Source: Thermoproteota archaeon
GTDB taxonomy: Archaea > Asgardarchaeota > Jordiarchaeia > Jordiarchaeales > Freyrarchaeaceae
Assembly: GCA_029258835.1 (NCBI GenBank)
Contig: JAPDJY010000006.1
Coordinates: forward strand, 16,497 to 80,496
Reading direction: 5' to 3'
Length of the DNA stretch: 64,000 nt
The translations under genes were made by a program, and so were the position numbers. The notes beneath the pieces were generated by a model that saw only the letters and a program-made list of their open reading frames with translations, made no database searches and was not told where the DNA came from. Numbering within the stretch: position 1 is the first letter of the stretch; the number at the start of each line of letters is the position of its first letter. Shown in pieces: positions 1,775 through 57,009 of the stretch.

Positions 1775-2599
1775 TCACGTTCCAATTCTCAGCTTCTCGG
1801 TAAGGTTTCTCAGCGTCCTAACAGCACTTAAGGCCGCAAGGTAGCTTGTTTCCGGGTTCTCAGGGCTGGGATAGTTATGTGTTACACAAAGAAGCCTTCC
1901 AAAGCTTCCCTTAGCATGGATCTCATGTACATTCCTATTTATCGTCGGGTCTGCAATCACCTTAACCTTCGTCCTGTCAGCCCCTATCCCTGCAAGGCTC
2001 AGGGACAACGCCACGTTGATCCCCTTAGGGAAGAGTGGGGCCGCCTCCCTAGCTGACCCCTCAAAAAGGACTGTGGGCCTAGTCACCTTGTCCAAGTCTA
2101 TTCCTTTCGATTCAACGTACCTGTTGCCCTTAAATGCTCTAGGCGGCTTTCTCGTAACGAGCTCCACCACCTCCAGCTCCTCCATAGCTGCGGCTTTAAC
2201 AGCGTCCAGCCCGCTTATCGCCCCGGAGGGAATGTATACGTGCACATCCCTCTCTCTTAATATCTCAACGATTCTATCGTAGAGTTCCTGATCGTGAAAT
2301 GCTCCAACACTTAAAACCATCAGGTCCTTTCCGGCCATCAACACCTTCTCTCCATACTCCTTCACGGCGCTTGGAGCAGCCGCCTCAACAACCAGGTTTA
2401 CGGCCTCGTCTCTGACGATCTCATCGATGCTCCCCGCAACTCTCACCCTTCTCTTTAAGGAGTCAGCTAGCCTCCTCGCTTTTTCGCCATCCAAGTCAAA
2501 TAGGTAGACGAGTTCCACGTCGCCGGCTCTACCCTCATCAATAGCTCTAGCTAGGATGCCTCCAATCACGCCGCAACCCACGATGGCGACTCTTATCAA
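1775..2599 (-). CDS. nadX: L-aspartate dehydrogenase
   Basis: Rossmann GCGVIG; YIPSGAISGLD, TRKPP, NVHEI and SPENPETSYLAALS motifs. Confidence 0.92.
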   Translation of the reverse strand: MIRVAIVGCGVIGGILARAIDEGRAGDVELVYLFDLDGEKARRLADSLKRRVRVAGSIDEIVRDEAVNLVVEAAAPSAVKEYGEKVLMAGKDLMVLSVGAFHDQELYDRIVEILRERDVHVYIPSGAISGLDAVKAAAMEELEVVELVTRKPPRAFKGNRYVESKGIDLDKVTRPTVLFEGSAREAAPLFPKGINVALSLSLAGIGADRTKVKVIADPTINRNVHEIHAKGSFGRLLCVTHNYPSPENPETSYLAALSAVRTLRNLTEKLRIGT

Positions 2600-2715
2600 A
2601 AGCGCCTCCTCCTACCGCTTCTAAGCATAACGAACCTTCAATCCAGTAGCAGCCATAAAACTTACGTGAACCAGTAGATGATAAGTGTTATAAAAAAAGT
2701 TTGGGTTGGCCCTCA

Positions 2716-3366
2716 ATGTACGCGGCCGTTGTTAAGGTTGGAGGAAGCCTGGCACGCCTCAAAAAAGACATGTTACGCCTCTGCGCCTCCCTATCACGCC
2801 TAGCTCAGCGCTATCAAATGCTTATCGTCCCAGGAGGCGGGGCGTTCGCCGATAAGGTGAGAGAAGCCTACCGGAGATTCAGGCTGAGCGACGACGCGGC
2901 ACACTGGATGGCGCTTACAGCGATGAACCAGTTCGGCTTCATGCTGGCAGAAATGGTTGGGGTGGAAGCGGCGGAAAGACCCTCCGAAGACGGGAAATCC
3001 ATTGTCCTGCTTCCATTTAGAATCATGCTAGAGGACGATCCTCTCCCCCACAGCTGGGATGCGACATCCGACTCGGTAGCAGCCTACATTGCGTGGAAGT
3101 TCGGCATCGCAAAGGTCGTGATCCTCACCGACGTCGATGGCGTCTTCTCGTCAGACCCTAAGAGGAATCCTAACGCTAAGCTGCTCCGCGAGGTGAAAGC
3201 GTCGAAGCTAGCTGGCTTCAAAAAGGCTACAAGCGTCGATCCGCTATTCCCTAGGCTCATAGGAAGATACCGCCTTAAAGCATGGGTTTTAAACGGGAAG
3301 CATCCGGATAGGCTGGAGCAAGTGCTGTTAGGCGGAAAACCCGTTGGAACCAGAATTCTAATCTGA
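2716..3366 (+). CDS. mfnE: Amino-acid-kinase-family protein, probable methanofuran biosynthesis kinase MfnE
   Basis: VKVGGSL, VPGGGAFAD, AHWMAL, PHSWDATSDS and TDVDG motifs; close to mfnB. Confidence 0.75.
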   Translation: MYAAVVKVGGSLARLKKDMLRLCASLSRLAQRYQMLIVPGGGAFADKVREAYRRFRLSDDAAHWMALTAMNQFGFMLAEMVGVEAAERPSEDGKSIVLLPFRIMLEDDPLPHSWDATSDSVAAYIAWKFGIAKVVILTDVDGVFSSDPKRNPNAKLLREVKASKLAGFKKATSVDPLFPRLIGRYRLKAWVLNGKHPDRLEQVLLGGKPVGTRILI

Positions 3367-4152
3367 CCCTCTCAGGAGCATGTCCGGGCTCTTAAGGATC
3401 GTTTTTATCGCATCCCTCAGCCAGAAAACCTCCGTCCTCCAGTCAACATCAAGGTAACCTCTCAGCTCAAGCCAGTTTAGCACCTTCCTAGTCGAGCTTA
3501 AGTTAAACCCCATCTTCTCGCTGAAACGGCTGATCCCTCCTACCTCGCCGTCATAAGCGTCCAGAACGCTCAGGATGGGAGCAGCCTTCTTAACCAAGAG
3601 CGCCAGCAGCCTCCTAAGCGATAAGGAAACGTTCAACCCGGTCACGGCGCTCGTGCCAACGACGGGGACGTCGCCGGGAATGCCCAGAGCCTCCCTAACC
3701 TCCTCTGGCCTGCGCGCCCCATCGATATCCTGCTTGTTCGCCATAACGACGCAGACGACCCCCGGCAGAAACTCCTTAACCTCCCTCCACACGGTTAAAG
3801 CCTCCTCGTCCCTCCTCTCGTCTGCACTGTCAACAACGAACAAAACCCCGTCAGCCCCCTTAGAAAGAATCTCCCTTAAAACCCTAAAATGCTTTAATCC
3901 TGGGGTGCCGAAAAGGTGTATGGTTAACCCGCTAACATCGGTTTTTCCGTAGTCAAGCGCAACAGTTGTCCCATGCTTCTCAATGTTAATACTATCCCCA
4001 CTTGAAAGCGCCTTCACAACACTCGACTTACCGGCACGAAACCCGCCAGTAACTAGGATCTTCAAACCCGACCCACACAACCCCTCTAAAAACCGAAACT
4101 CACAGGGAAAAATCCACCCTAAAAATCTTTTGGAACACCCCACAGGAAACAA
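3358..4152 (-). CDS. Small Ras-superfamily (Arf/MglA-like) GTPase with C-terminal winged-helix extension
   Basis: G1 GGFRAGKS, G2 TTVALDYG, G3 GTPG, G4 NKQD, G5 TSA; C-terminal helix-turn-helix-wing pattern; true start probably near 4065. Confidence 0.8.
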   Translation of the reverse strand: MFPVGCSKRFLGWIFPCEFRFLEGLCGSGLKILVTGGFRAGKSSVVKALSSGDSINIEKHGTTVALDYGKTDVSGLTIHLFGTPGLKHFRVLREILSKGADGVLFVVDSADERRDEEALTVWREVKEFLPGVVCVVMANKQDIDGARRPEEVREALGIPGDVPVVGTSAVTGLNVSLSLRRLLALLVKKAAPILSVLDAYDGEVGGISRFSEKMGFNLSSTRKVLNWLELRGYLDVDWRTEVFWLRDAIKTILKSPDMLLRGSD

Positions 4153-4195
4153 TCAACACAAAATGCTAACGAGCTGAAAAAGAAAAATTAAAACC

Positions 4196-4948
4196 CTAAA
4201 TCCCCGCTTTAACGTCTACGCCACAAGCCCTTCCCTTCTCCGCCTCCCTAATGGCTCTAACCAGCTCTTCAACTCTCGTACGCGTTATACGACCCCTCAA
4301 CCTGTCAGCTCCCTCGCATGCAGCCCCCCTAACCCCAACTATGTCCGCTCCAACCCTAACAATTAAGGGCAGCTCCTCCTTCCTCAGTGAGCCAGCCAAG
4401 GCCACCGTCAACCCCCGCTCCTTCGCAAGGGAAACAAACCTCTCCACACCATCCAAACCCCATAGGTCCAGCAGGCTTAAGCCATCCTTAACAGCGGTGT
4501 CAACCATCGCCACGTCAGCGCCCGCAGCCTCCACAATGGAGGGAACAAGGAACGGGTCAACAGCCCCAACCATCTCAGCGTCAGCATACCCTGCAAGAAC
4601 AACTTTAACCTCAGAGCTAAACTCCTTAACACTCCTCACAGCCTGCTTCGAAAGGTGAACAGCAGAATCAAAGCTCCTCACACCGTAAAGCCCGATTTTA
4701 ACGTAGTTTGCCCCGCTCACAGCAGCCCCAAGAGCCGCCAGAGCCACAGTGCCAGGCTTGTCGGGAACATCCCCAACAGTGGCACTAACCTCAATACCCC
4801 TCGGAACCACAGCCCTGATCCTCCGGATCACCCAAGGAAAATTCGCACCCAAACTACCCTCTGCAGGATTCTTCACGTCTATGATATCAGCCCCTCCGGC
4901 AACAGCCTCCAAGGCCTCAAGCTCGTCAACAGGACTCACCAGAAGCAT
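4196..4948 (-). CDS. mfnB: (5-formylfuran-3-yl)methyl phosphate synthase
   Basis: LLVSP...GGADIIDVKNPAEGSLGANFPW, SATVGD, DTAVKDG, ALAGSL, GVRGAAC. Confidence 0.92.
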   Translation of the reverse strand: MLLVSPVDELEALEAVAGGADIIDVKNPAEGSLGANFPWVIRRIRAVVPRGIEVSATVGDVPDKPGTVALAALGAAVSGANYVKIGLYGVRSFDSAVHLSKQAVRSVKEFSSEVKVVLAGYADAEMVGAVDPFLVPSIVEAAGADVAMVDTAVKDGLSLLDLWGLDGVERFVSLAKERGLTVALAGSLRKEELPLIVRVGADIVGVRGAACEGADRLRGRITRTRVEELVRAIREAEKGRACGVDVKAGI

Positions 4949-5546
4949 CAAAGCAACCACCACCAGCCTAAACACCACTAACAACAAATAAAATATTTAC
5001 CTTTCGTTTAAAGCCATCAATCGCAAAAAGAAGCCCGCACCCAATAACCCCATCCATCCGGCATCCTCAACCCCCCGTCACCATACCAAGGAAAACATCT
5101 CACCCCCCGCATACCCCTCTCAAGATCATACCCGCCAACCAACCCTCGAAAGCCACCACGAGCCTCCACCCACTCCCTCCACCACCGCCCTCAAAACGAA
5201 AGGCACCCCTCAGCCACCCTGCAAAATGCCGAAGCCACGGAGCTTAAGCGGGAAACCAACTCGAGAAACCAACAAGAAACACCCAAAAACCGGCAATCCA
5301 CACGTCCAAAGGCTCCAAGGCCTCCAGCCACAAACCCATGAAAAGATGAAATCACCATCGGAAAATGTCAAAAAGCAATGCAGACTCTACACTCAAGATC
5401 ATCCTCATCCCTCAAGAGGTCAGAGGGGTCAGACCTATCATCGTCTGCAAACTAAAAAACAACCCAGAAGCCAATAAAAGTTTCGATACAAAAACCACCC
5501 AACTATAAAAAGTAATAAAGATAAAAGGGGAGATACCCCGCAAAAC

Positions 5547-7907
5547 CTACTTCTTCTTCCGTATAAGCCTAGGCAGCAACGTCGGGTCAATGATCCTGCT
5601 AGGCTTCCAGCCCCTATCCTTAAGCTCCCTCAACAGATCCTCCTTAAACGTTATAGGAATATCCCCCTCAACCCTGACAAGCTTATGGATATCATCAGGC
5701 CAGTCCTTACCCAAGTACTTCCTCGTTAAGTCAATGTAATGGCTCAACTTTATAGCCCTACCCTTCGTAGTGTCATTCGGCCTCATGCAAAGCTTCGCCG
5801 TCAACACTATACATTCTTCCATCGTGTCCGCTACAACTATCAGGTGCTCCGGCGTTGGACCAACGTAAACCCTATCACCCGTCCTCGCATCATACACGTA
5901 CCAATCCTCATCTATATCCGCCCTACCAAGGTACTGCCTCCTATACTTCGCCCCATGAGGACCTACTATCACCGGTACACCCCAGAAATTAGTTCCAGTA
6001 GCTATGCTCGCCGCCTTCTGCGAATAAGCCCCCCACGCCACTCCAACTGCCCCTACGCGGTTTAAAATGTAATCGGCGATTTCCTCGAAGTTACCCCTCA
6101 GGTTTCTTCTGGCGAATATGCTTGCTATCTTTATCGCTGCACCCGTTATATGTGGATTTGAAACACATGACCCAACGTTTACCAGTCCTCCTGCCTCGAA
6201 AGCTCCTGAATATTTTTCGTAGAGTGTTTTTCCTTCTTCATCCCTGTACCTTGCAATGTCCATTGCTGAGCATCCACTAGCAACCACTATGTACCTTCTC
6301 TTTAGGAACTCTTCAGCCATTAAAGCCACTTCGTGTGTTCCCTTAGGATAGTTAGCGCAGCCTACGTAGGCTACGACTCCCGGTATTTCACCGAGAACTA
6401 TTGGTGCACCTACCTCTCTTATTTCAGTATCTCTTATTGGTCCTCTACCAGCACGCATCTTATACTTGTCCTCTTTAATCTGCTTTTCAGCTGCCTTCAC
6501 TATCAAGTCGTGGATTGGTATTCCCTGTGGGCAGGCTTGACTGCACCTGTTGCATGCGACGCATGGGTCGTAGAGGTCTGCAAGCATGTTTAGGTTGCCT
6601 TCGGCTGCTGCTTTGACCGCGTAGCCTATGGGTAGGTCCTCTGGGCATGCTCTCTGGCATGTGAGGCAGAGGGTGCATTTGGATGCCCATTCGATGAGCT
6701 TTTTCTTGTCTGGTATTACCTTAAACTTCTTTCTTAGTGGTGCGAGTTTCATGGCTACTCTTACGGCAACTTCTCCTGCTTTCTCCGGGTCAGATATGAA
6801 AACTCCGTTATTGGTTTGTTCGAGTGCTCCTTTAACTAGGTCTTCCACTATTTCGTCTGTTGGGTCGTTTGTTCTGTCCGGTAATCCTCCTGCGTTCTTC
6901 TCGTTTGTGGCGATGAATGCCGCCTTTATCCTTCTAGCCTCTAGAATGTTGTCCGTCCTTATGCATTGCTCGTCTACCATGATGACGTCTGGAACTCCTG
7001 ACCGGATTATCTTTAGTTGTCTAGCTAGGGAGCCGACGATTTTATACTTGGGGTCGTACCTCGTGAAGTCTATGGCTGTGCAGCATATTCCGCAAACTTC
7101 TACTTCGTCCTCAAGCCTGTGCTCTCTGAGGTAGTCGATGACTCCTATTGCGGGAAGCACGTTGTGGCCTATTGCCAAGACCACGGGTTTGGTTACATCT
7201 ATCGTGCCCATCCCTATGTCTACTAGGGGTGCTTCAGGATCTCCCTTCGGGAATCCTAAGGTTACTATCTGGACGAGGTCTGCGACCTCCATTGAGATCT
7301 GGTCCATGAACCCTACGTGAAGAGCCTTGGCTTCGAAATCTAAGTAGTTGCTTTCCTGTCCTGTATGCGTGGCTGAGAGGCAGTGCATAATGTTTTCGTC
7401 GACATAGTCGAGTACTGGGATGAGGTCTCTCAGAACTTTGGGTCTTACACCACATATGGTTCGTGTTACAGGTGCTTCGACTTCTATCTCGTCTCCAAGG
7501 TCTATCGGGTAGTCGGGACCATATTTATGGATAAGCTCGCGGAGCAGGTGTCTTGCGTGTCCTGCGTGAGCGGCACAACCCATAAGGCAGGCTAACAAAA
7601 CAATTCTTCCCTGCTGGTCTTCGATATTAAGGCCGCACGCCCCCCTCTTCCCGGCGGTGAGGTCGCAGTGTCCAAAGGTGCATAGGCAGCACCTATCACA
7701 GAAGGGTGCATAAAATGGCCTGTACCTTTTTAAAAGTGTGTGAGCCCAGCTTCTTGTTGTTAGGATGTCCGGGAAAGGTGTTGGTCCTTGCGGCTCCCAT
7801 TCTTCTTCCTCTTCTATGATTTCACCTATGTACATCTCTAAGTTTTTGAAGGATGCTATACCTGTTGTTAATGAGTCTGCTTTTATTTTTGCGGCTGGTC
7901 TTACCAT
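5547..7907 (-). CDS. cdhA: CO dehydrogenase/acetyl-CoA synthase complex alpha subunit
   Basis: CDRCCLCTFGHC, HAGHARH, GICCT, two extra CxxCxxCxxxCP motifs, GSCVSN, GAYSQKA; start set at MVRPAAK after GGAGG. Confidence 0.96.
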   Translation of the reverse strand: MVRPAAKIKADSLTTGIASFKNLEMYIGEIIEEEEEWEPQGPTPFPDILTTRSWAHTLLKRYRPFYAPFCDRCCLCTFGHCDLTAGKRGACGLNIEDQQGRIVLLACLMGCAAHAGHARHLLRELIHKYGPDYPIDLGDEIEVEAPVTRTICGVRPKVLRDLIPVLDYVDENIMHCLSATHTGQESNYLDFEAKALHVGFMDQISMEVADLVQIVTLGFPKGDPEAPLVDIGMGTIDVTKPVVLAIGHNVLPAIGVIDYLREHRLEDEVEVCGICCTAIDFTRYDPKYKIVGSLARQLKIIRSGVPDVIMVDEQCIRTDNILEARRIKAAFIATNEKNAGGLPDRTNDPTDEIVEDLVKGALEQTNNGVFISDPEKAGEVAVRVAMKLAPLRKKFKVIPDKKKLIEWASKCTLCLTCQRACPEDLPIGYAVKAAAEGNLNMLADLYDPCVACNRCSQACPQGIPIHDLIVKAAEKQIKEDKYKMRAGRGPIRDTEIREVGAPIVLGEIPGVVAYVGCANYPKGTHEVALMAEEFLKRRYIVVASGCSAMDIARYRDEEGKTLYEKYSGAFEAGGLVNVGSCVSNPHITGAAIKIASIFARRNLRGNFEEIADYILNRVGAVGVAWGAYSQKAASIATGTNFWGVPVIVGPHGAKYRRQYLGRADIDEDWYVYDARTGDRVYVGPTPEHLIVVADTMEECIVLTAKLCMRPNDTTKGRAIKLSHYIDLTRKYLGKDWPDDIHKLVRVEGDIPITFKEDLLRELKDRGWKPSRIIDPTLLPRLIRKKK

Positions 7908-51052: not shown

Positions 51053-51337
51053 TTGATGGGGTTTGTAGGGTGGCGTCCTGCAGGAGGTGGAGAGGCGCCC
51101 CCATCCCGACGTCTTATCCGTATGAGGGGTGATCGGGGTGAAGCTCCGAAGGGTTATTACGCTGCTCGTAGCCGTGACGTTTCTCATTCAAGGTGCTGGA
51201 TGATCGCTACGAAACCCGGTATGGACCGGTTGAAGTCCGCTAAGGAGGGTGCCTGGAAAGAAGGGTTAGCGAAGTTAGTTGAGCTGGTCAAGGAGGACTT
51301 TAACCCCCCGGGAAAGCTGGAGGTGGGTTCGCGTTGA
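51053..51337 (+). CDS. Hypothetical protein overlapping the start of the large ORF (TTGA overlap)
   Basis: 94-aa ORF after an AT-rich TATA-like region. Confidence 0.4.
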   Translation: MMGFVGWRPAGGGEAPPSRRLIRMRGDRGEAPKGYYAARSRDVSHSRCWMIATKPGMDRLKSAKEGAWKEGLAKLVELVKEDFNPPGKLEVGSR

Positions 51338-54300
51338 AGGAGTGGGGCTTCGAACGGCCGGAGCGGCCCGAGAAAAGCGGAGGAAAACCACCAGAAGAGG
51401 AGTACGCCGAAAAAATGGTCAGGCTAATCACCAGGAAACCGCCCGAGGAGGAGCTTGCCAGGATGGCCGGGTTCACCCCCTCCACAGGCAGGGAGTTGCT
51501 CAACTCCAAGCCAGGCAAAACAATGGGGGCGCAGGAGGGAAAAAAATACTCAGGAGGGGGACGGGAGAAGCTCAGCCAAGGGTTTATCAAACATTGGGAG
51601 AAAGTAGGAGGAGAGGGGAAGAGATCGAGAAGAGTGGTTGAGGAAGGGTGTGTGCTGGCTTTACCTTCCGAGTTGAGAGAATTTTATCGTTTTAGTTTGA
51701 TTTCGTCTGGTGAAACTATGGGTGAGTTGCTGGAGAAGGTTAGGGGGGTTGGTGGGGTTGTTGGGGGGATTGCTAAGAGGTTGATGGAGCGGCTTACTTC
51801 ATTACTTAAGCTTGAATGGAATGAGAAAAGTGGGATTAAAGCTAGTGAGTTTTTAAAGTCATTTAATGAGGTGTTATGGGGAGGTAGTGGTAATGTTCCT
51901 GGGTTATTGAGAAGAGGCATTCCAACGCCACCTGAAATAGCTAAGGGTATTGAAAGACTTGTAGAGGAATTGGGCTCTGCGAAAAAGGTTGCTTCATTAT
52001 TTGCTAAAGTAGGTGTTAAGACGGATGAAGCTGTCGTTCTCGCTATGGCTGGCAGACTTGGTTTTGCTCTTGAGCAATGGAACAGGCTGAAAGAGAAGTT
52101 GAAAATAGAGGAAGACAAGATTAGTGTTGAATTTGTTCAACGTGAGAGGATATCGGTGAAAGTTGAAAATGTTCGTCTCGGGAAAGGCGAGATTAAGGTC
52201 GAGTTCGGGAGATCCTCTAAGGGGGAAGAAAAGGTTTACATTATTGAAGGATGGGAAAAGCTCTATGACATAATATCGGAGAGCAATTTGTCGATAATGG
52301 ATCTTGGGAGAGAAATCGGAGTAAATCATACCATTTTGTCTCGTGCCCTTAGGGTTGTAAGCGTTGAGAAGGTTGATGCGGCCGCCAAAATTTTGGGCTT
52401 AGAGTCGCCAGTGAAGATAAGCATCGATGAGTTAGCCTTACGACTTGCCGTTAAGCTTACACCCCCCATAGTTCCAATAAGGAAAGGTGTTATAACTGTT
52501 TTTAATTCACGGATTGCAGTTCGCGACTTCAGGGCTAAGCGTATCGCTACCCCAGAAGGAGTGATTAAAACAGATATACATTTAATGAAGCGATATAATT
52601 CACCGTTACTCAAAGAAGTAGCGTTGGATATAGTAAAGAAGCTGGGGGGAAAGGCGGAGAAATACCCCGTAATCTTCCGTAAAGTAGGAATATACTCACT
52701 AGGCGGCTTCATGCTTAAGATAGGAAGCATTAAGGATGAGAAAGGTTACACGAGGGAGGTAAAGGGAGGTGGTGTAGCAGGGATAGATGCTGTGGCACTA
52801 GCTGTCCTAGTAGCGGACACGTTGGGGCTTAAAAAAGCGAAGCAATTTCTCGAGTCGTTGAGACCTGGGGAAATAATCCTTAAGGATAGGTTTAGGGTGG
52901 CGGCTGAAAAGGAGCTTGAGAAGGTCGCCTATAACCCCCTCGAATTCGTCGAGGCATGTATGAAGCTTTTCGACGTTAAAGGTAACGTAAAAGAGGTGGC
53001 ACTTGGCATAGGGATGATTGAAGGGTTCGCATCCTCGGACGCATCCGTAATTGGAAGCTTCTCACATGGCAGTTTAACTAGGATTGAAGAGGCTGAGCTG
53101 TCTGTTTGGGCAATAAAAACAGTATTCGGAACAAGCGTCAGAATATCACAGCGTGGCGACGGGAGATACTACGTCGATGTTCGAATTCCAAGACTTCTTC
53201 TTGATGTAACAGGATATAAAGGGGAGAGAAAGGTTAAGAGCGGCGAAACTGTTCCGAGGAAGCTCTTTGAGAGAGTGAACAAGTGGCTAAAAAAGGGGAA
53301 GGAAATAAAGCTAAGAGAGAGTGAGAAACGCAGAGTTGACGTAGCCATACTTGAAGCTGGGGGACTAATAAGCGCAATGGTGATGGGAGATGGAAACGTT
53401 AACGTAAAAGAGTTCATAGTTAAAGTTGAACAGAGGATGGTCGTCGGTGACACTAGAGGGAAAGGAGTAGTAAGGGAGTTCGGTGAAAAATTAGAAGGTA
53501 TTCTGAGAAAGCTTACAGGAAAAGAGACGCCAGAAGAAATCATCCGAGAACTACATAGAAAGAAGATAATAGAAGAATTTGTCAGCCCTTCGGGTTATGT
53601 AGAGTGGTTGCTCAAATTTGGAAAGCTGAAGAAGATGTGTGAAGAGAGAGGATTGAAGGAGGAGTTTAGAAAGCTTACGGAAGTTATGATATGGCATCCC
53701 GGCCTCGGACGGACGAAAATAATCGCGAAGAGACTGCTCAAGGCGCTCGTAAACCGCTTCAACATAAGAAGACCAAAAATACGGGTAGAATTACAACATG
53801 GCAGATTCATCTTGAATGTGAAAAGCGACCGGATAATAGTCAAAAAAACTGCTAAGCTGATGTTTAGGGGGTGGAGCGCCGCACTGCTTCTCTTACCATT
53901 CCTCAAAGGTTCTAAAGGGTTTGAGCTTGCAAAGGCGGTGATGCATAGAATAGCGGGACACGTGATAGAGTTGAGTCCAAAGGAATCCAAGTTACTCGTC
54001 AGTTGGGTACAAGATAATCATAAAAAACTCGAAAGAGAGGGAAGACTAAACAGTGTTAAAGGAATACTTTATGTTCACCTTCCACCAACCATGATGAGAG
54101 ATGTTGAATTACGGATTCCAGAATGGGAGAACAATGAGATAAAGGAAGAGGTAAAAAGCAGTGTGAGAGAGTTTATGAGCGGAAAAAAGTTTAAAGATAG
54201 GGAAACTGTAGAAGACCTGCTGGAAAGGGCTGAAATCAACCTTGAAAAGCTGGAACCCTTACCTCACACGGTAGAAGTTTACAACTGGAGAAGTGATGGT

Positions 54301-54408
54301 AAGATTAGTGGGAGTGAGTGGTGTCGAGTCTACTATGCTCCAGATCCAAGACCGCTTTACAACGGAATGAGAAAACTAGAAAAGGACTTCCTAGAGGACA
54401 GAATATGA
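51334..54408 (+). CDS. Large basic protein with HTH-like segment and two LAGLIDADG-like motifs
   Basis: 1024 aa, K/E/R-rich; SIMDLGREIGVNHTILSRAL (HTH-like); MIEGFASSDASV and LISAMVMGDGNV. Confidence 0.6.
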   Translation: MKEWGFERPERPEKSGGKPPEEEYAEKMVRLITRKPPEEELARMAGFTPSTGRELLNSKPGKTMGAQEGKKYSGGGREKLSQGFIKHWEKVGGEGKRSRRVVEEGCVLALPSELREFYRFSLISSGETMGELLEKVRGVGGVVGGIAKRLMERLTSLLKLEWNEKSGIKASEFLKSFNEVLWGGSGNVPGLLRRGIPTPPEIAKGIERLVEELGSAKKVASLFAKVGVKTDEAVVLAMAGRLGFALEQWNRLKEKLKIEEDKISVEFVQRERISVKVENVRLGKGEIKVEFGRSSKGEEKVYIIEGWEKLYDIISESNLSIMDLGREIGVNHTILSRALRVVSVEKVDAAAKILGLESPVKISIDELALRLAVKLTPPIVPIRKGVITVFNSRIAVRDFRAKRIATPEGVIKTDIHLMKRYNSPLLKEVALDIVKKLGGKAEKYPVIFRKVGIYSLGGFMLKIGSIKDEKGYTREVKGGGVAGIDAVALAVLVADTLGLKKAKQFLESLRPGEIILKDRFRVAAEKELEKVAYNPLEFVEACMKLFDVKGNVKEVALGIGMIEGFASSDASVIGSFSHGSLTRIEEAELSVWAIKTVFGTSVRISQRGDGRYYVDVRIPRLLLDVTGYKGERKVKSGETVPRKLFERVNKWLKKGKEIKLRESEKRRVDVAILEAGGLISAMVMGDGNVNVKEFIVKVEQRMVVGDTRGKGVVREFGEKLEGILRKLTGKETPEEIIRELHRKKIIEEFVSPSGYVEWLLKFGKLKKMCEERGLKEEFRKLTEVMIWHPGLGRTKIIAKRLLKALVNRFNIRRPKIRVELQHGRFILNVKSDRIIVKKTAKLMFRGWSAALLLLPFLKGSKGFELAKAVMHRIAGHVIELSPKESKLLVSWVQDNHKKLEREGRLNSVKGILYVHLPPTMMRDVELRIPEWENNEIKEEVKSSVREFMSGKKFKDRETVEDLLERAEINLEKLEPLPHTVEVYNWRSDGKISGSEWCRVYYAPDPRPLYNGMRKLEKDFLEDRI

Positions 54409-55292
54409 CAGAGGAATTTAAAAAGCTCAAAGAAATTGTTAAGGCTCTTGACTTTAGTAGATTGCTTAACGTTGAGGAGGAGCGAGTGTTCGAGAGAGCG
54501 AAAGACCTCGTATCACAACTAGACCTTGAAAAGCTGAGAACTAGGGATGGAGTAGAGAAAGAAAAGTTTGAAGCAGTTCTCAAGCTATCGAGGGTGTTTG
54601 CTGAAAAGATACTGGAGTGGCTTGGAAGGCAGCCGCCAGACTCAAACAAGCCCATAATGGGCATGGAGCTGAAGGAATACTGGAAAGTAGAAAACAGCCT
54701 GTGGCGTAAGGCGGAGGAAGAGTGGCGTGCCTATGCCTACGCTGCACGCTACCTGAGCATTTTCGGAGAACTCGCAAACAAGCTGATAGTCAGGAAACTT
54801 TACGACGAGGCATTGAGGATTGCCCTCACCATACCGTGGTTTCACCCCCCGGAGCTAGTAGCAAACATAGAGCTCCTCAGTGAGGAAGACCTAAGTCGAA
54901 CTGCTAAGGAAGCAGAAGAACGTTTTAATGCGTATAGTGAGGTCGCTCTGACCTCTGGTGTGGAGTGGACAGAGGAAGTAGAAGAAGAAATCAGAGAGCT
55001 GGCTATAAAGAAGAGAGACGTAATGCTGGATGAAATGATAAGCTACTTAGAGAGCTCCCTGAAGGAGAGTATGTCGAGAAGGGGGGTTCTCGGGCTGCTT
55101 GCAGCATGCGCCAAAGACGATGATGAAGCCCTAAAAGCTATACTAAACCATCTAGACGAACTGAGTAAGTGGGACAAAGCCATAGTAGCAAGCAAGCTTA
55201 GATATAGGCATAAGGAAATTGCAAAGAGAATATATTCAAACTTAAGGGAGGCAGGAGAAACGTACCGCATGCTGGAGGAGGTCTGGTGCTGA
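54405..55292 (+). CDS. Acidic all-helical hypothetical protein coupled to the upstream gene
   Basis: ATGA overlap with the 54408 stop (MTEEFKK...); E-rich helical repeats. Confidence 0.65.
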   Translation: MTEEFKKLKEIVKALDFSRLLNVEEERVFERAKDLVSQLDLEKLRTRDGVEKEKFEAVLKLSRVFAEKILEWLGRQPPDSNKPIMGMELKEYWKVENSLWRKAEEEWRAYAYAARYLSIFGELANKLIVRKLYDEALRIALTIPWFHPPELVANIELLSEEDLSRTAKEAEERFNAYSEVALTSGVEWTEEVEEEIRELAIKKRDVMLDEMISYLESSLKESMSRRGVLGLLAACAKDDDEALKAILNHLDELSKWDKAIVASKLRYRHKEIAKRIYSNLREAGETYRMLEEVWC

Positions 55293-55359
55293 TCCAGAAA
55301 AACGTTTTTATATCCCCGCCTTCTAAGTGGGGATGAAACGTCCAGTTTAAGTTAAAAGG

Positions 55360-55953
55360 GTGGTAAAGATGTCCTCTAGTAGGCTGATTAAGGAATTTGA
55401 CACAGATTTCACCCGGGAAGTAATAGATTTCGGATCTAAGTTTTTCCCTGAAGTAGAAAATTTTAGGGCATGTATCCAGTGCGGGACGTGTACTGGTAGC
55501 TGTCCTAGTGGCCGCGAAACCGCGTGGCGCGTGAGGAAGCTAATAAGACAGGTTCAGCTGGGTCTTAAGGAGGACGCAATAAGAAACGATGCCTTATGGA
55601 ACTGCACTACATGCTACACTTGCAGCGAATCCGCTTTGCATGTAGCAAGCGGTCGCTAAAGGTGTCCCCGCCTAATCCCTATCACCGACATAGTCCGTAG
55701 TGTAAGGAACATCGCCGTCTATAATGGTATTATGCTGCCAAGACACGTTCAAGTGGCCGGCTTACTTATTAAGTACGGCCACGCCGTCCCAATTAACGAT
55801 GAAACTAGGGAGGTAAGGAAGGAGCTTGGACTAGACGAGACGCCTCCCACAGTTCATGCCTTCCCCGACGCCTTAGGGGAGGTTAAGAAGCTACTGGAGG
55901 ACACGGGTTTCATCAGGCTAATAGAAGAGGCTGGAAGGGAGGGTTCTAAGTGA
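55360..55953 (+). CDS. hdrC: Heterodisulfide reductase subunit C, interrupted by a 30-nt intron (55630-55659)
   Basis: CIQCGTCTGSCP; spliced second motif CTTCYTCSE|RCPR; GHAVP and PPTVH C-terminal motifs; coupled to hdrB. Confidence 0.92.
55630..55659 (+). other. BHB-type intron in a protein-coding gene
   Basis: TCCGCTTTGCATGTAGCAAGCGGTCGCTAA; central helix AGCG/CGCT, bulges AA^T and AA^A, inner stem CCGCTT/AAGCGG; excision restores frame and Fe-S motif. Confidence 0.85.
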
Positions 55954-56840
55954 GTAGGTATGCTTACTTTCTAGGATGTTTAACTCCCAACAGGTATCCT
56001 GGAATTGAGACCGCAACTATCGACCTTTTAAGGCTTTTTGACATAGAAGTTGACTACATGAAGGGTACCTCCTGCTGCCCTGCTCCAGGAGTTTTCGGCT
56101 CTTTCGACCTTAACACGTGGATCGTCATAGCCGCTAGGAACATCACTATAGCCGAGGATATGGGTGCAGACATAACGTTAACCTGCAACGGGTGCTATGC
56201 TACGTTGCAGGAGGCAGACCACATGCTTAAACACAATAGGGAGCTTGTGATAGACGTCAACCGGCGTCTTGCAAAGGTAGGAAGAGAGTACAAGGGGACG
56301 GTTAACGTGATACACATCATGGAGATACTTTACAAGGAAATTGGACCGGAGAAAATAAGGGACATGGTTGTTCAGCCGCTTGAGGGAGTTAAAGTAGCAT
56401 GCCACTATGGCTGCCACTTCCTGAAGCCTAGCGATATAAGACAGCAAGGCAACCCTGAAAACCCGACGATGATGGAAGAACTCATTGAGGCCATAGGCGC
56501 TGAGCCGGTGGAGTACCGGGACAAGAACATGTGTTGTGGTGCGGGGGGAGGTGTAAGAGCCGGAAAAATAGACTTAGCATTAGACATGACCCGTAGAAAG
56601 ATAGACGCGATGATGGAGGCTGGAGCCGACTGCGTCGTTACACCGTGCGTATTCTGCCACTTCCAATTCGACGTCGGCCAGGCCGAAATTAACAATAGGC
56701 TTGGAGCCGAGAAATATAAGCTACCAGTAGTGTTCATCACACAGCTCATTGGGCTGGCCCTGGGAATGTCCCCGAGGAGAATGGGTCTTCACAGAAACCG
56801 CACACAGGTGAAAACCCTCTTGGACAAGGTCTTCGCCTAA
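55950..56840 (+). CDS. hdrB: Heterodisulfide reductase subunit B
   Basis: FLGC, SCCPAPG, CNGC, HYGCH, CCGAGGG, CVFC..QFD. Confidence 0.96.
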   Translation: MSRYAYFLGCLTPNRYPGIETATIDLLRLFDIEVDYMKGTSCCPAPGVFGSFDLNTWIVIAARNITIAEDMGADITLTCNGCYATLQEADHMLKHNRELVIDVNRRLAKVGREYKGTVNVIHIMEILYKEIGPEKIRDMVVQPLEGVKVACHYGCHFLKPSDIRQQGNPENPTMMEELIEAIGAEPVEYRDKNMCCGAGGGVRAGKIDLALDMTRRKIDAMMEAGADCVVTPCVFCHFQFDVGQAEINNRLGAEKYKLPVVFITQLIGLALGMSPRRMGLHRNRTQVKTLLDKVFA

Positions 56841-57009
56841 ACACGGTCCACTTCAAACATTACCCTTCCCTTTTTTAACACTTCTAAACCTTTTTGGCTT
56901 GCTTGGATGACGCTTCCTCTAGGTGGCACTCCTCGATGGGTAACGCTTTTAAAGATTCCATATGGATTGGTACTTACGGTTGTTCTTATAGGGCTCTGGA
57001 GGTAGCACT

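What the first reader, a model, noticed from the sequence alone, without database searches (positions are those of the whole stretch)
55630..55659. Spliced mRNA: a BHB intron with an in-frame stop inside the Fe-S motif of hdrC
Seen: hdrC is broken by exactly 30 nt (TCCGCTTTGCATGTAGCAAGCGGTCGCTAA) between codons GAA and AGG, and removing them restores CTTCYTCSERCP, the second [4Fe-4S] motif. The junctions fold into a relaxed BHB: 4-bp helix AGCG/CGCT, 3-nt bulges AAT and AAA, inner stem CCGCTT/AAGCGG (one extra U opposite the first bulge), and exon-exon pairing ACACTT/AGGTGT. Cutting after the second nucleotide of each bulge removes exactly these 30 nt. Known: archaeal EndA/RtcB splice BHB introns in tRNA/rRNA; mRNA cases are rare and cbf5 is the classic one. 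Inference: an energy-metabolism mRNA here depends on tRNA-type splicing, and the unspliced form gives a truncated, non-functional protein.
Basis: partly seen in the sequence, partly recalled or inferred. Interest (0 to 1): 0.93.

Follow-up and report, generated by a model that had tools for sequence, protein, structure and literature searches.

The report
tRNA-type intron inside Asgard hdrC
A 30-base insert that breaks the heterodisulfide reductase gene hdrC of an Asgard (Jordarchaeia-class) archaeon has the position, shape and evolutionary behaviour of an intron cut out by the tRNA-splicing enzymes, a type published for the coding part of only one archaeal gene, but its removal from RNA has not yet been seen.

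Summary
Window 55630-55659 is a 30-nt in-frame insert ending in TAA, between the third and fourth Cys codons of the second Fe-S motif of hdrC. Removing it joins the HdrC profile TIGR03290 seamlessly (positions 2-56 | 57-144).

It is real DNA: three other assemblies carry it identically. Three of six species of the sister family have an insert at the same codon junction (30, 30 and 39 nt). Their 4-bp central helix co-varies (AGCG/CGCU versus CAAG/CUUG) and their inner hairpins differ but all pair.

A 99.7 %-identical intron-less allele also exists. All six exon-2 codon differences from it are synonymous, and two of them add outer-helix pairs.

The genome encodes a crenarchaeal-type two-subunit EndA and RtcB. 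At least four other genes (aDnaG, GatE, AhcY, aIF2-gamma) are broken and seamlessly restored the same way.

The motif is relaxed (HBh'), not strict.

No RNA read across the junction could be obtained, so splicing is inferred (about 0.85). In print, only cbf5 has a coding-region intron of this type. This scan has already reported the class on other Asgard DNA and elsewhere in this genome.

The parts
55305..55313 (+). A/T-rich TATA-like box upstream of hdrC; GGTGG ribosome-binding-like site at 55359-55363
   Evidence: Read directly from the sequence; inference only, not tested.
55369..55629 (+). hdrC exon 1 (87 codons): first CxxCxxCxxxCP motif and the first three Cys of the second
   Evidence: TIGR03290 positions 2-56, ending at the last residue; Fer4 Pfam families.
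55616..55621 (+). 5' strand of the outer exon-exon helix (ACACUU), pairing with 55660-55665
   Evidence: Minimum-energy fold. Two of its six pairs exist only in the intron-bearing allele, through synonymous changes at 55662 and 55665.
55624..55627 (+). 5' strand of the 4-bp central helix H (AGCG, exon), pairing with 55654-55657
   Evidence: Pair probability 0.96-1.0 with 16-nt flanks. Three of the four pairs change on both sides relative to the sister family.
55628..55630 (+). 5' bulge AAU; predicted cut after A55629
   Evidence: The 5' bulge is canonical in the sister-family inserts.
55630..55659 (+). 30-nt intron: inner hairpin 55631-55636/55647-55652, extra U55653, 3' strand of H at 55654-55657, in-frame TAA at 55657-55659
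   Evidence: Identical in three further assemblies. Absent from alleles L037/L038.
55658..55660 (+). 3' cut-site loop AAA, opposite G55622-C55623; predicted cut after A55659
   Evidence: AAA is invariant in all four same-site inserts.
55660..55953 (+). hdrC exon 2 (97 codons plus stop), beginning RCP, which holds the fourth Cys of the second cluster
   Evidence: TIGR03290 positions 57-144 from residue 1. All six codon differences from the intron-less allele are synonymous.
55950..56840 (+). hdrB, overlapping the hdrC stop
   Evidence: TIGR03288, 426 bits against a cut-off of 345; two CCG domains.

Best explanation
The 30 nt at 55630-55659 are an archaeal bulge-helix-bulge-type intron in the hdrC-hdrB pre-mRNA of a Jordarchaeia-class Asgard archaeon.

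Proposed mechanism:
1. The transcript folds locally. Exon bases AGCG (55624-55627) pair with intron bases CGCU (55654-55657) to form the 4-bp central helix. The intron's own hairpin (CCGCUU/AAGCGG) forms the inner helix. Exon-exon pairing ACACUU/AGGUGU closes the outside.
2. [quoted passage not shown]
3. RtcB joins the exons, and probably circularises the intron.
4. The joined message encodes a 184-residue HdrC with an intact second CxxCxxCxxxCP motif.

Unspliced RNA would give a 96-residue fragment that lacks the fourth cluster ligand.

Shown: the insert, its exact seamless position, the fold, the co-variation, selection on the downstream exon, the enzymes, and parallel cases in the same genome. 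Inferred: cleavage, ligation and translation of the joined product.
For: (1) Seamless join. Exon 1 covers TIGR03290 positions 2-56 and exon 2 covers 57-144. The bit scores sum to 90 + 104, above the cut-off of 160. The intron-less allele scores 217 over positions 2-143.

(2) Same-site inserts. Among 11 genomes of the class, an insert lies at exactly the E|R junction in this genome and in 3 of 6 species of the sister family: G009 (30 nt), G008 (30 nt) and the complete genome G006 (39 nt). None is present in the 4 genomes of the sister genus, in about 17 more distant Asgard hdrC genes, or in 77 metagenome loci.

(3) Structure is kept while sequence changes. The central helix is AGCG/CGCU here and CAAG/CUUG there, so 3 of 4 pairs change on both sides. 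In the shuffle control, 7 of 500 shuffles reach the observed co-variation. Slid registers give 5-48 % paired against 87.5 %. The inner helices CCGCUU/AAGCGG, AGCC/GGCU and UCAGAG/CUCUGA are unrelated but all pair. The central-helix pair probability is 0.85-1.0.

(4) Comparison with the intron-less allele L037 (99.7 % identical over 979 nt downstream). Nine of its roughly 15 differences lie within 25 nt of the insertion site. All six changed exon-2 codons are synonymous. AGA>AGG and TGC>TGU create two outer-helix pairs. CAG>AGC builds the central helix.

(5) Not an assembly artefact. An identical allele is present in GCA_054386335.1, ERZ27248101 and ERZ27227321.

(6) Enzymes. The EndA alpha subunit (190 aa) aligns end to end with the Aeropyrum pernix catalytic subunit 3P1Z_B (E = 4e-46), with no gap across the crenarchaeal loop region. 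A second, His-less paralogue and RtcB are also present.

(7) Same rule elsewhere in the genome. aDnaG (profile 1-26 | 28-...), GatE (3-88 | 90-...), AhcY (1-179 | 181-416) and aIF2-gamma, the only copy found in the genome (exon 2 starts at profile position 19, just after the P-loop), are broken by 23-31-nt inserts with the same geometry.
Against: - No RNA evidence. The only RNA-library contigs that match cover 55262-55460 and 56203-56843, not the junction. No joined protein of this allele is in the 15-billion-protein collection.
- The motif is not the strict hBHBh'. The 3' cut lies in an internal loop, and one U faces the 5' bulge.
- With 30-nt flanks a competing fold halves the probability of the central helix.
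- The gene is not demonstrably essential. Three or more HdrC-like paralogues exist, all below the equivalog cut-off.
- The intron-less allele was seen on more contigs (8 versus 4).
- My offset control for a genome-wide excess of such inserts had no power.
Confidence: 0.85

Rival explanations
1. hdrC of this strain is a pseudogene. A small hairpin-forming insertion, such as a miniature mobile element or a replication slip, inactivated it, and paralogues or the intron-less allele in other cells supply the function.
For: - An in-frame stop lies in the insert.
- HdrC-like paralogues exist.
- The intron-less allele is the more frequently assembled one.
- There is no RNA proof of splicing.
Against: - Inserts at the identical codon junction in three other species, with compensatory central-helix changes, are not expected from random insertion.
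- All six codon differences in the downstream exon are synonymous.
- hdrB and the rest of hdrC are intact.
- The insert has no other copy in the genome.
- The same kind of insert breaks aIF2-gamma (only one copy found in the genome) and GatE, which cannot all be dead.
Confidence: 0.07
2. The insert is retained in the mRNA and is passed by the ribosome through translational bypassing (as in phage T4 gene 60) or by stop-codon read-through.
For: In the sister-family inserts the codon before the insert and the last codon of the insert are both GAA, and a stop follows the first GAA directly in two of them. This resembles a take-off/landing pair.
Against: - In this window the last insert codon is UAA, not GAA, so there is no matching landing codon.
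- The GAA repeat in the relatives follows automatically from a helix ending in G plus AA-initial bulges.
- Read-through would insert ten residues between the third and fourth Cys ligands of a cluster motif.
- The 39-nt relative has two in-frame stops.
- Co-variation of a helix that pairs exon with insert fits recognition of RNA structure.
Confidence: 0.03
3. The 30 nt are an assembly or binning artefact of this genome assembled from a metagenome.
For: - Contigs of the best DNA holder X1 stop on either side of the region.
- Another run (X7) and two JGI contigs lack exactly these 30 nt.
Against: - Three further assemblies, from NCBI and ENA, carry the identical allele with 0 mismatches over 427-585 nt.
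- A curated complete genome of the sister family has an insert at the same site.
- An artefact would not have splice-motif geometry.
Confidence: 0.02

Closest known systems
BHB intron of the cbf5 pre-mRNA in Crenarchaeota (Watanabe 2002; Yoshinari 2006; Yokobori 2009, PMC2738675)
   Same: - A short intron inside a coding sequence.
- A relaxed cleavage motif.
- A host with a hetero-oligomeric, broad-specificity EndA.
- Lineage-specific presence and absence of the intron.
- Gene callers split the gene in two.
   Different: - Different gene (energy metabolism, inside an Fe-S motif) and a different phylum (Asgard).
- Here presence and absence are seen between alleles 99.7 % identical, with linked synonymous exon changes.
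- cbf5 splicing was shown by RT-PCR and in vitro cleavage. Here it is inferred.
Non-canonical tRNA introns of Freyr-/Jordi-/Atabeyarchaeia (Valentin-Alvarado 2024, PMC11291895; bioRxiv 10.64898/2026.10.13.758758)
   Same: - Same lineages and the same presumed enzymes.
- Short introns at many positions.
- Repeated gain or loss at the same positions.
- Two EndA paralogues consistent with (alpha-beta)2.
   Different: Those papers describe tRNA genes only. A text search of the preprint finds 'mRNA' zero times, and every mention of introns in the 2024 paper concerns tRNA. Here the host RNA is a messenger and reading-frame restoration is the test.
BHB intron in the 5' UTR of Haloferax volcanii HVO_1309 (Schwarz 2020, PMC7714728)
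   Same: EndA acts on an mRNA; there the intron is released as a circle and cut in vitro.
   Different: That intron lies in the untranslated leader and does not interrupt a reading frame. The host has a homodimeric EndA and a strict motif.
Translational bypassing in phage T4 gene 60
   Same: A short untranslated gap with a stop codon and a hairpin inside an otherwise continuous coding sequence.
   Different: It needs matching take-off and landing codons, which are absent here (GAA versus UAA). There is no exon-insert helix co-variation in that system.

Membership tests
Archaeal BHB intron, strict hBHBh' motif | [quoted passage not shown] | tested here: not met
   The central helix is 4 bp. However, the 3' cut site is an internal loop (AA(A) opposite GC), and one U faces the 5' bulge. 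The sister-family inserts have a clean 5' bulge and the same 3' loop.
Archaeal BHB intron, relaxed HBh' motif (substrate of (alpha-beta)2 and epsilon2 EndA) | 4-bp central helix, one proper bulge and an adjacent intron-internal helix; cuts after the second nt of each bulge or loop | tested here: met
   AGCG/CGCU, AAU, then CCGCUU/AAGCGG. The cut rule removes exactly 55630-55659. The same holds for the three relatives.
Archaeal BHB intron | Removal restores the mature product exactly | tested here: met
   TIGR03290 positions 56|57 are contiguous, with no residue lost or gained. The spliced reading matches intron-less orthologues.
Archaeal BHB intron | Helices are maintained by compensatory change among homologous introns | tested here: met
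   Three of four central-helix pairs change on both sides, and the inner helices are wholly different yet paired. Only three independent lineages are available, so the statistics are thin.
Archaeal BHB intron | The host encodes a splicing endonuclease able to cut relaxed motifs, and an RtcB ligase | tested here: met
   An alpha subunit with the Tyr/His/Lys catalytic residues, aligning without a gap across the crenarchaeal loop of 3P1Z_B; a beta-like paralogue; RtcB at 607 bits. Enzyme activity was not tested.
Archaeal BHB intron | The intron is absent from mature RNA (exon-exon junction, circular or linear free intron) | not testable with these tools
   The matching RNA-library contigs do not reach the junction.
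HdrC, CoB-CoM heterodisulfide reductase subunit C (TIGR03290) | Two CxxCxxCxxxCP motifs, full profile coverage above the cut-off, adjacent hdrB | tested here: met
   Read through the insert, the gene scores 196.8 bits against a cut-off of 160. The two exons cover positions 2-144. hdrB overlaps the stop. That the substrate is CoM-S-S-CoB is doubtful in a non-methanogen and was not tested.

The most novel reading that the evidence does not exclude
hdrC is one visible case of a lineage-wide habit. Jordarchaeia-class Asgard archaea would routinely interrupt ordinary and essential protein-coding genes with 20-40-nt tRNA-type introns. These introns would still be gained or lost today between near-identical strains, together with a short tract of flanking exon changes. 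That would make them a prokaryotic, spliceosome-free example of intron-rich protein genes in the closest relatives of eukaryotes.
Probability: 0.65. Interest if true: 0.9.

Novelty: new member of a known kind. Interest (0 to 1): 0.72.

Why it matters
- State of the literature. In the papers searched, only cbf5 has a coding-region intron removed by the tRNA-splicing machinery (PMC7714728 says so explicitly).
- What this case adds. It is a second, unrelated gene, in an Asgard archaeon, inside a metal-cluster motif. Intron-bearing and intron-less alleles 99.7 % identical co-exist in nature. That gives a natural experiment on how such introns arise, how exons adapt to them, and whether splicing limits expression.
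- Annotation. Gene callers split or truncate these genes: the 96-aa and 73-aa fragments are what the databases hold. Metabolic reconstructions of these Asgard lineages therefore under-count intact genes.
- Wider relevance. Together with the parallel cases in this genome, it bears on whether messenger splicing by protein enzymes was common in the archaeal relatives of eukaryotes.

Tried and rejected
- RNA evidence. Two metatranscriptome runs from one sample (X19, X24) were laid. Their contigs cover only 55262-55460 and 56203-56843, so nothing can be said about the junction, and an RNA library may contain DNA. X1 contigs stop at 55585 and resume at 55702; this is uninformative.
- Protein search. 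A 'longer' protein search with exon 2 returned only five distant full-length HdrC proteins and missed even the known 100 % match. The 90 % cluster holds only the intron-less protein and the two fragments, so no joined product of this allele is on record.
- Genome-wide excess test. Shifting the 3' cut by 1-5 nt gave as many ORF-merging hits as the true rule (21 versus 14-20). The ORF criterion alone cannot count introns. The parallel cases therefore rest on profile continuity, not on that statistic.
- False positives of my scan. CRISPR repeats on C2 and C16; the end of a fumarylacetoacetate-hydrolase gene (C6:63011-63069); a doubtful case at C16:38457-38493.
- tRNA census. ARAGORN finds no tRNA in the window and a noisy, incomplete set in the genome. 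It was not used as a count.
- Other copies of the intron. A BLAST of the intron against the genome found none, so it is not a repeated element.
- Split-protein reading. Rejected, because the next in-frame start (ATG 55732) lies after the RCP cysteine.
- Pfam gave nothing for the two ORFs upstream of hdrC.

Full report
**1. What is in the sequence**

hdrC runs from ATG 55369 on the + strand. After ...CTTCYTCSE the frame continues through nine codons and a TAA (55630-55659). It then resumes in the same frame with RCPRLIPITD... down to the stop at 55951-55953. hdrB follows, overlapping that stop (55950-56840; TIGR03288, 426 bits).

The insert therefore lies between the third and fourth cysteine codons of the second CxxCxxCxxxCP motif. 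Against the NCBIfam equivalog model for HdrC (TIGR03290, 144 positions):
- exon 1 matches positions 2-56 and ends at its last residue;
- exon 2 matches positions 57-144 and starts at its first residue.

No residue is missing or extra. This is the strongest single statement that exactly these 30 nt are foreign to the protein.

**2. Organism**

The window is part of an assembly of 2.72 Mb in 91 contigs, 94.7 % complete.
- The nearest named hdrB is from a Candidatus Jordarchaeales genome assembled from a metagenome.
- The intron-less form of this very HdrC is named Candidatus Freyrarchaeum guaymaensis / Freyarchaeota in NCBI.
- DNA runs that hold the locus are hydrothermal-vent and marine-sediment metagenomes.

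This class of Asgard archaea is known for extreme numbers of tRNA introns (PMC11291895; bioRxiv 10.64898/2026.10.13.758758). A text search of the preprint finds 'mRNA' zero times, and every mention of introns in PMC11291895 concerns tRNA.

**3. Structure**

With 16-nt flanks the minimum-energy fold (-24.1 kcal/mol; z = -3.2) has these elements:

| Element | Bases | Window positions |
|---|---|---|
| Outer helix | ACACUU / AGGUGU | 55616-55621 / 55660-55665 |
| 2x2 loop | GC / AA | 55622-55623 / 55658-55659 |
| Central helix | AGCG(A) / (U)CGCU | 55624-55627 / 55654-55657 |
| 5' bulge | A(A)U | 55628-55630 |
| Inner helix | CCGCUU / AAGCGG | 55631-55636 / 55647-55652 |

The EndA rule, a cut after the second nucleotide following the central helix on each strand, removes 55630-55659.

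It counts A55660 twice and ignores the GC opposite the 3' site. The motif is therefore the relaxed HBh' type, not the strict hBHBh'. That is the type processed by crenarchaeal-type (alpha-beta)2 enzymes (PMC5829648, PMC2738675).

With 30-nt flanks a competing fold appears, because the intron loop (55638-55645) is complementary to exon bases 55607-55614. The probability of the central helix then drops to about 0.45. I have no explanation for that complementarity.

**4. Comparative evidence**

Eleven genomes represent the class in the genome collection. hdrC has an insert at precisely the E|R junction in:
- this genome;
- three of the six species of the sister family: G009 (30 nt), G008 (30 nt) and the complete genome G006 (39 nt).

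It has none in the four genomes of the sister genus, in about 17 more distant Asgard hdrC genes, or in 77 metagenome loci. All four inserts contain in-frame stops.

Their structures are equivalent but built from different letters:
- The central helix is CAAG/CUUG instead of AGCG/CGCU, so three of four pairs change on both sides. Overall 87.5 % of cells pair, against 5-48 % in slid registers. In the shuffle control, 7 of 500 shuffles reach the observed co-variation.
- The bulges are AAU or AAA, and AAA.
- The inner helices are AGCC/GGCU or UCAGAG/CUCUGA.

The 5' strand of the central helix is coding exon (Ser-Glu here, Gln-Glu there) and the 3' strand is intron. The intron thus tracks the exon it must pair with.

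**5. The two alleles**

Two JGI contigs (L037, L038) and a contig of run X7 carry hdrC without the 30 nt. L037 is 99.7 % identical to the window over the 979 nt downstream. Nine of its roughly fifteen differences lie within 25 nt of the insertion site.
- CAG>AGC (Gln>Ser) creates the exon strand of the central helix.
- AGA>AGG and UGC>UGU are synonymous, and each adds a pair to the outer helix.
- All six changed codons of exon 2 are synonymous.

A dead downstream half would not be expected to change only synonymously. The clustering fits either adaptation of the exon to the intron or co-conversion of flanks when the intron was gained or lost. I cannot tell which, nor whether the intron is ancestral to the class with several losses or was gained more than once at a structurally permissive site.

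**6. The insert is real DNA**

The 96-residue truncated product, which is specific to the insert, is on record from four contigs. The three shown (GCA_054386335.1, ERZ27248101, ERZ27227321) are identical to the window over 427-585 nt.

**7. The machinery**

The genome encodes:
- a 190-residue EndA catalytic subunit that aligns end to end with the Aeropyrum pernix alpha subunit (3P1Z_B, E = 4e-46), with no gap across the loop that gives crenarchaeal enzymes their broad specificity;
- a second paralogue lacking the catalytic His, taken as the beta subunit;
- RtcB.

**8. The same thing elsewhere in the genome**

A motif-plus-ORF scan of my own picked out short inserts with the same geometry, mostly with AA before each cut, in well-known genes.

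| Gene | Insert (locus coordinates) | Length | Profile | Exon 1 covers | Exon 2 starts at |
|---|---|---|---|---|---|
| aDnaG | L114:281-311 | 31 nt | NF003108 | 1-26 | 28, at residue 2 |
| GatE | L116:426-455 | 30 nt | NF003107 | 3-88 | 90, at residue 2 |
| AhcY | L115:755-777 | 23 nt | TIGR00936 | 1-179 | 181 |
| aIF2-gamma | L117:1181-1210 | 30 nt | TIGR03680 | not detected (62 aa) | 19, right after the P-loop |

The profile coordinates are. aIF2-gamma is the only copy found in the genome, so this organism must be able to remove such inserts from messengers.

Earlier first-stage notes of this scan list many more candidates in this genome, and follow-ups report the same class in other Asgard genomes. 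I used those as leads only. My attempt to estimate the total number with an offset control had no power.

**9. What is not shown**

No RNA read or contig spans the junction, and the tools for more runs were exhausted. Essentiality of this hdrC is not established, because weaker paralogues exist.

**10. Verdict**

This is a new member of the small known class of endonuclease-spliced introns in archaeal coding sequences; cbf5 is the only published case (PMC2738675, PMC7714728). It has unusually good comparative support and an informative intron-plus/intron-minus polymorphism. Confidence that it is spliced is about 0.85.

Noticed in passing
L114:281-311 (+), L116:426-455 (+), L115:755-777 (-), L117:1181-1210 (-), L118:689-715 (-), L119:1114-1149 (-): Other genes of the same genome are broken by 23-36-nt inserts with the same helix-bulge geometry: aDnaG, GatE, AhcY, aIF2-gamma (only one copy found in the genome), a radical-SAM activase-like gene and an FAD-oxidase-like gene. 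Profile coordinates are contiguous across the first three. The aIF2-gamma exon 2 starts at profile position 19.
   Followed up: partly
window 55607-55614 and 55638-55645: The loop of the intron hairpin is perfectly complementary (8 nt) to exon sequence about 25 nt upstream. This gives a competing fold that halves the predicted probability of the splice motif with longer flanks. The sister-family inserts show nothing similar.
   Followed up: partly
window 51334-55405: Upstream of about 55405 the intron-bearing and intron-less alleles are unrelated in sequence, although they are 96-99.7 % identical downstream. The window has two ORFs here (1024 aa and 324 aa) with no Pfam family, so the neighbourhood differs between the two populations.
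   Followed up: no
G000 contigs C2 (about 2300-7850, - strand) and C16 (about 55180, + strand): CRISPR arrays with a repeat containing GAGTCCCCAGACATGGGGATTG. They mimic the splice motif and were false positives of my scan.
   Followed up: no
whole genome G000: ARAGORN finds only about 26 tRNA genes, most with predicted introns and several with implausible ones. This fits the published heavy and partly hidden interruption of tRNA genes in this class.
   Followed up: no
window 55630-55659; L008:341-370; L010:1471-1500; L011:1462-1500: All four hdrC inserts are multiples of three (30, 30, 30, 39 nt), lie in phase 0 and carry in-frame stops. The window's insert and the two 30-nt relatives share a GCUU...AAGC hairpin core, which hints at common descent rather than independent gain.
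   Followed up: partly
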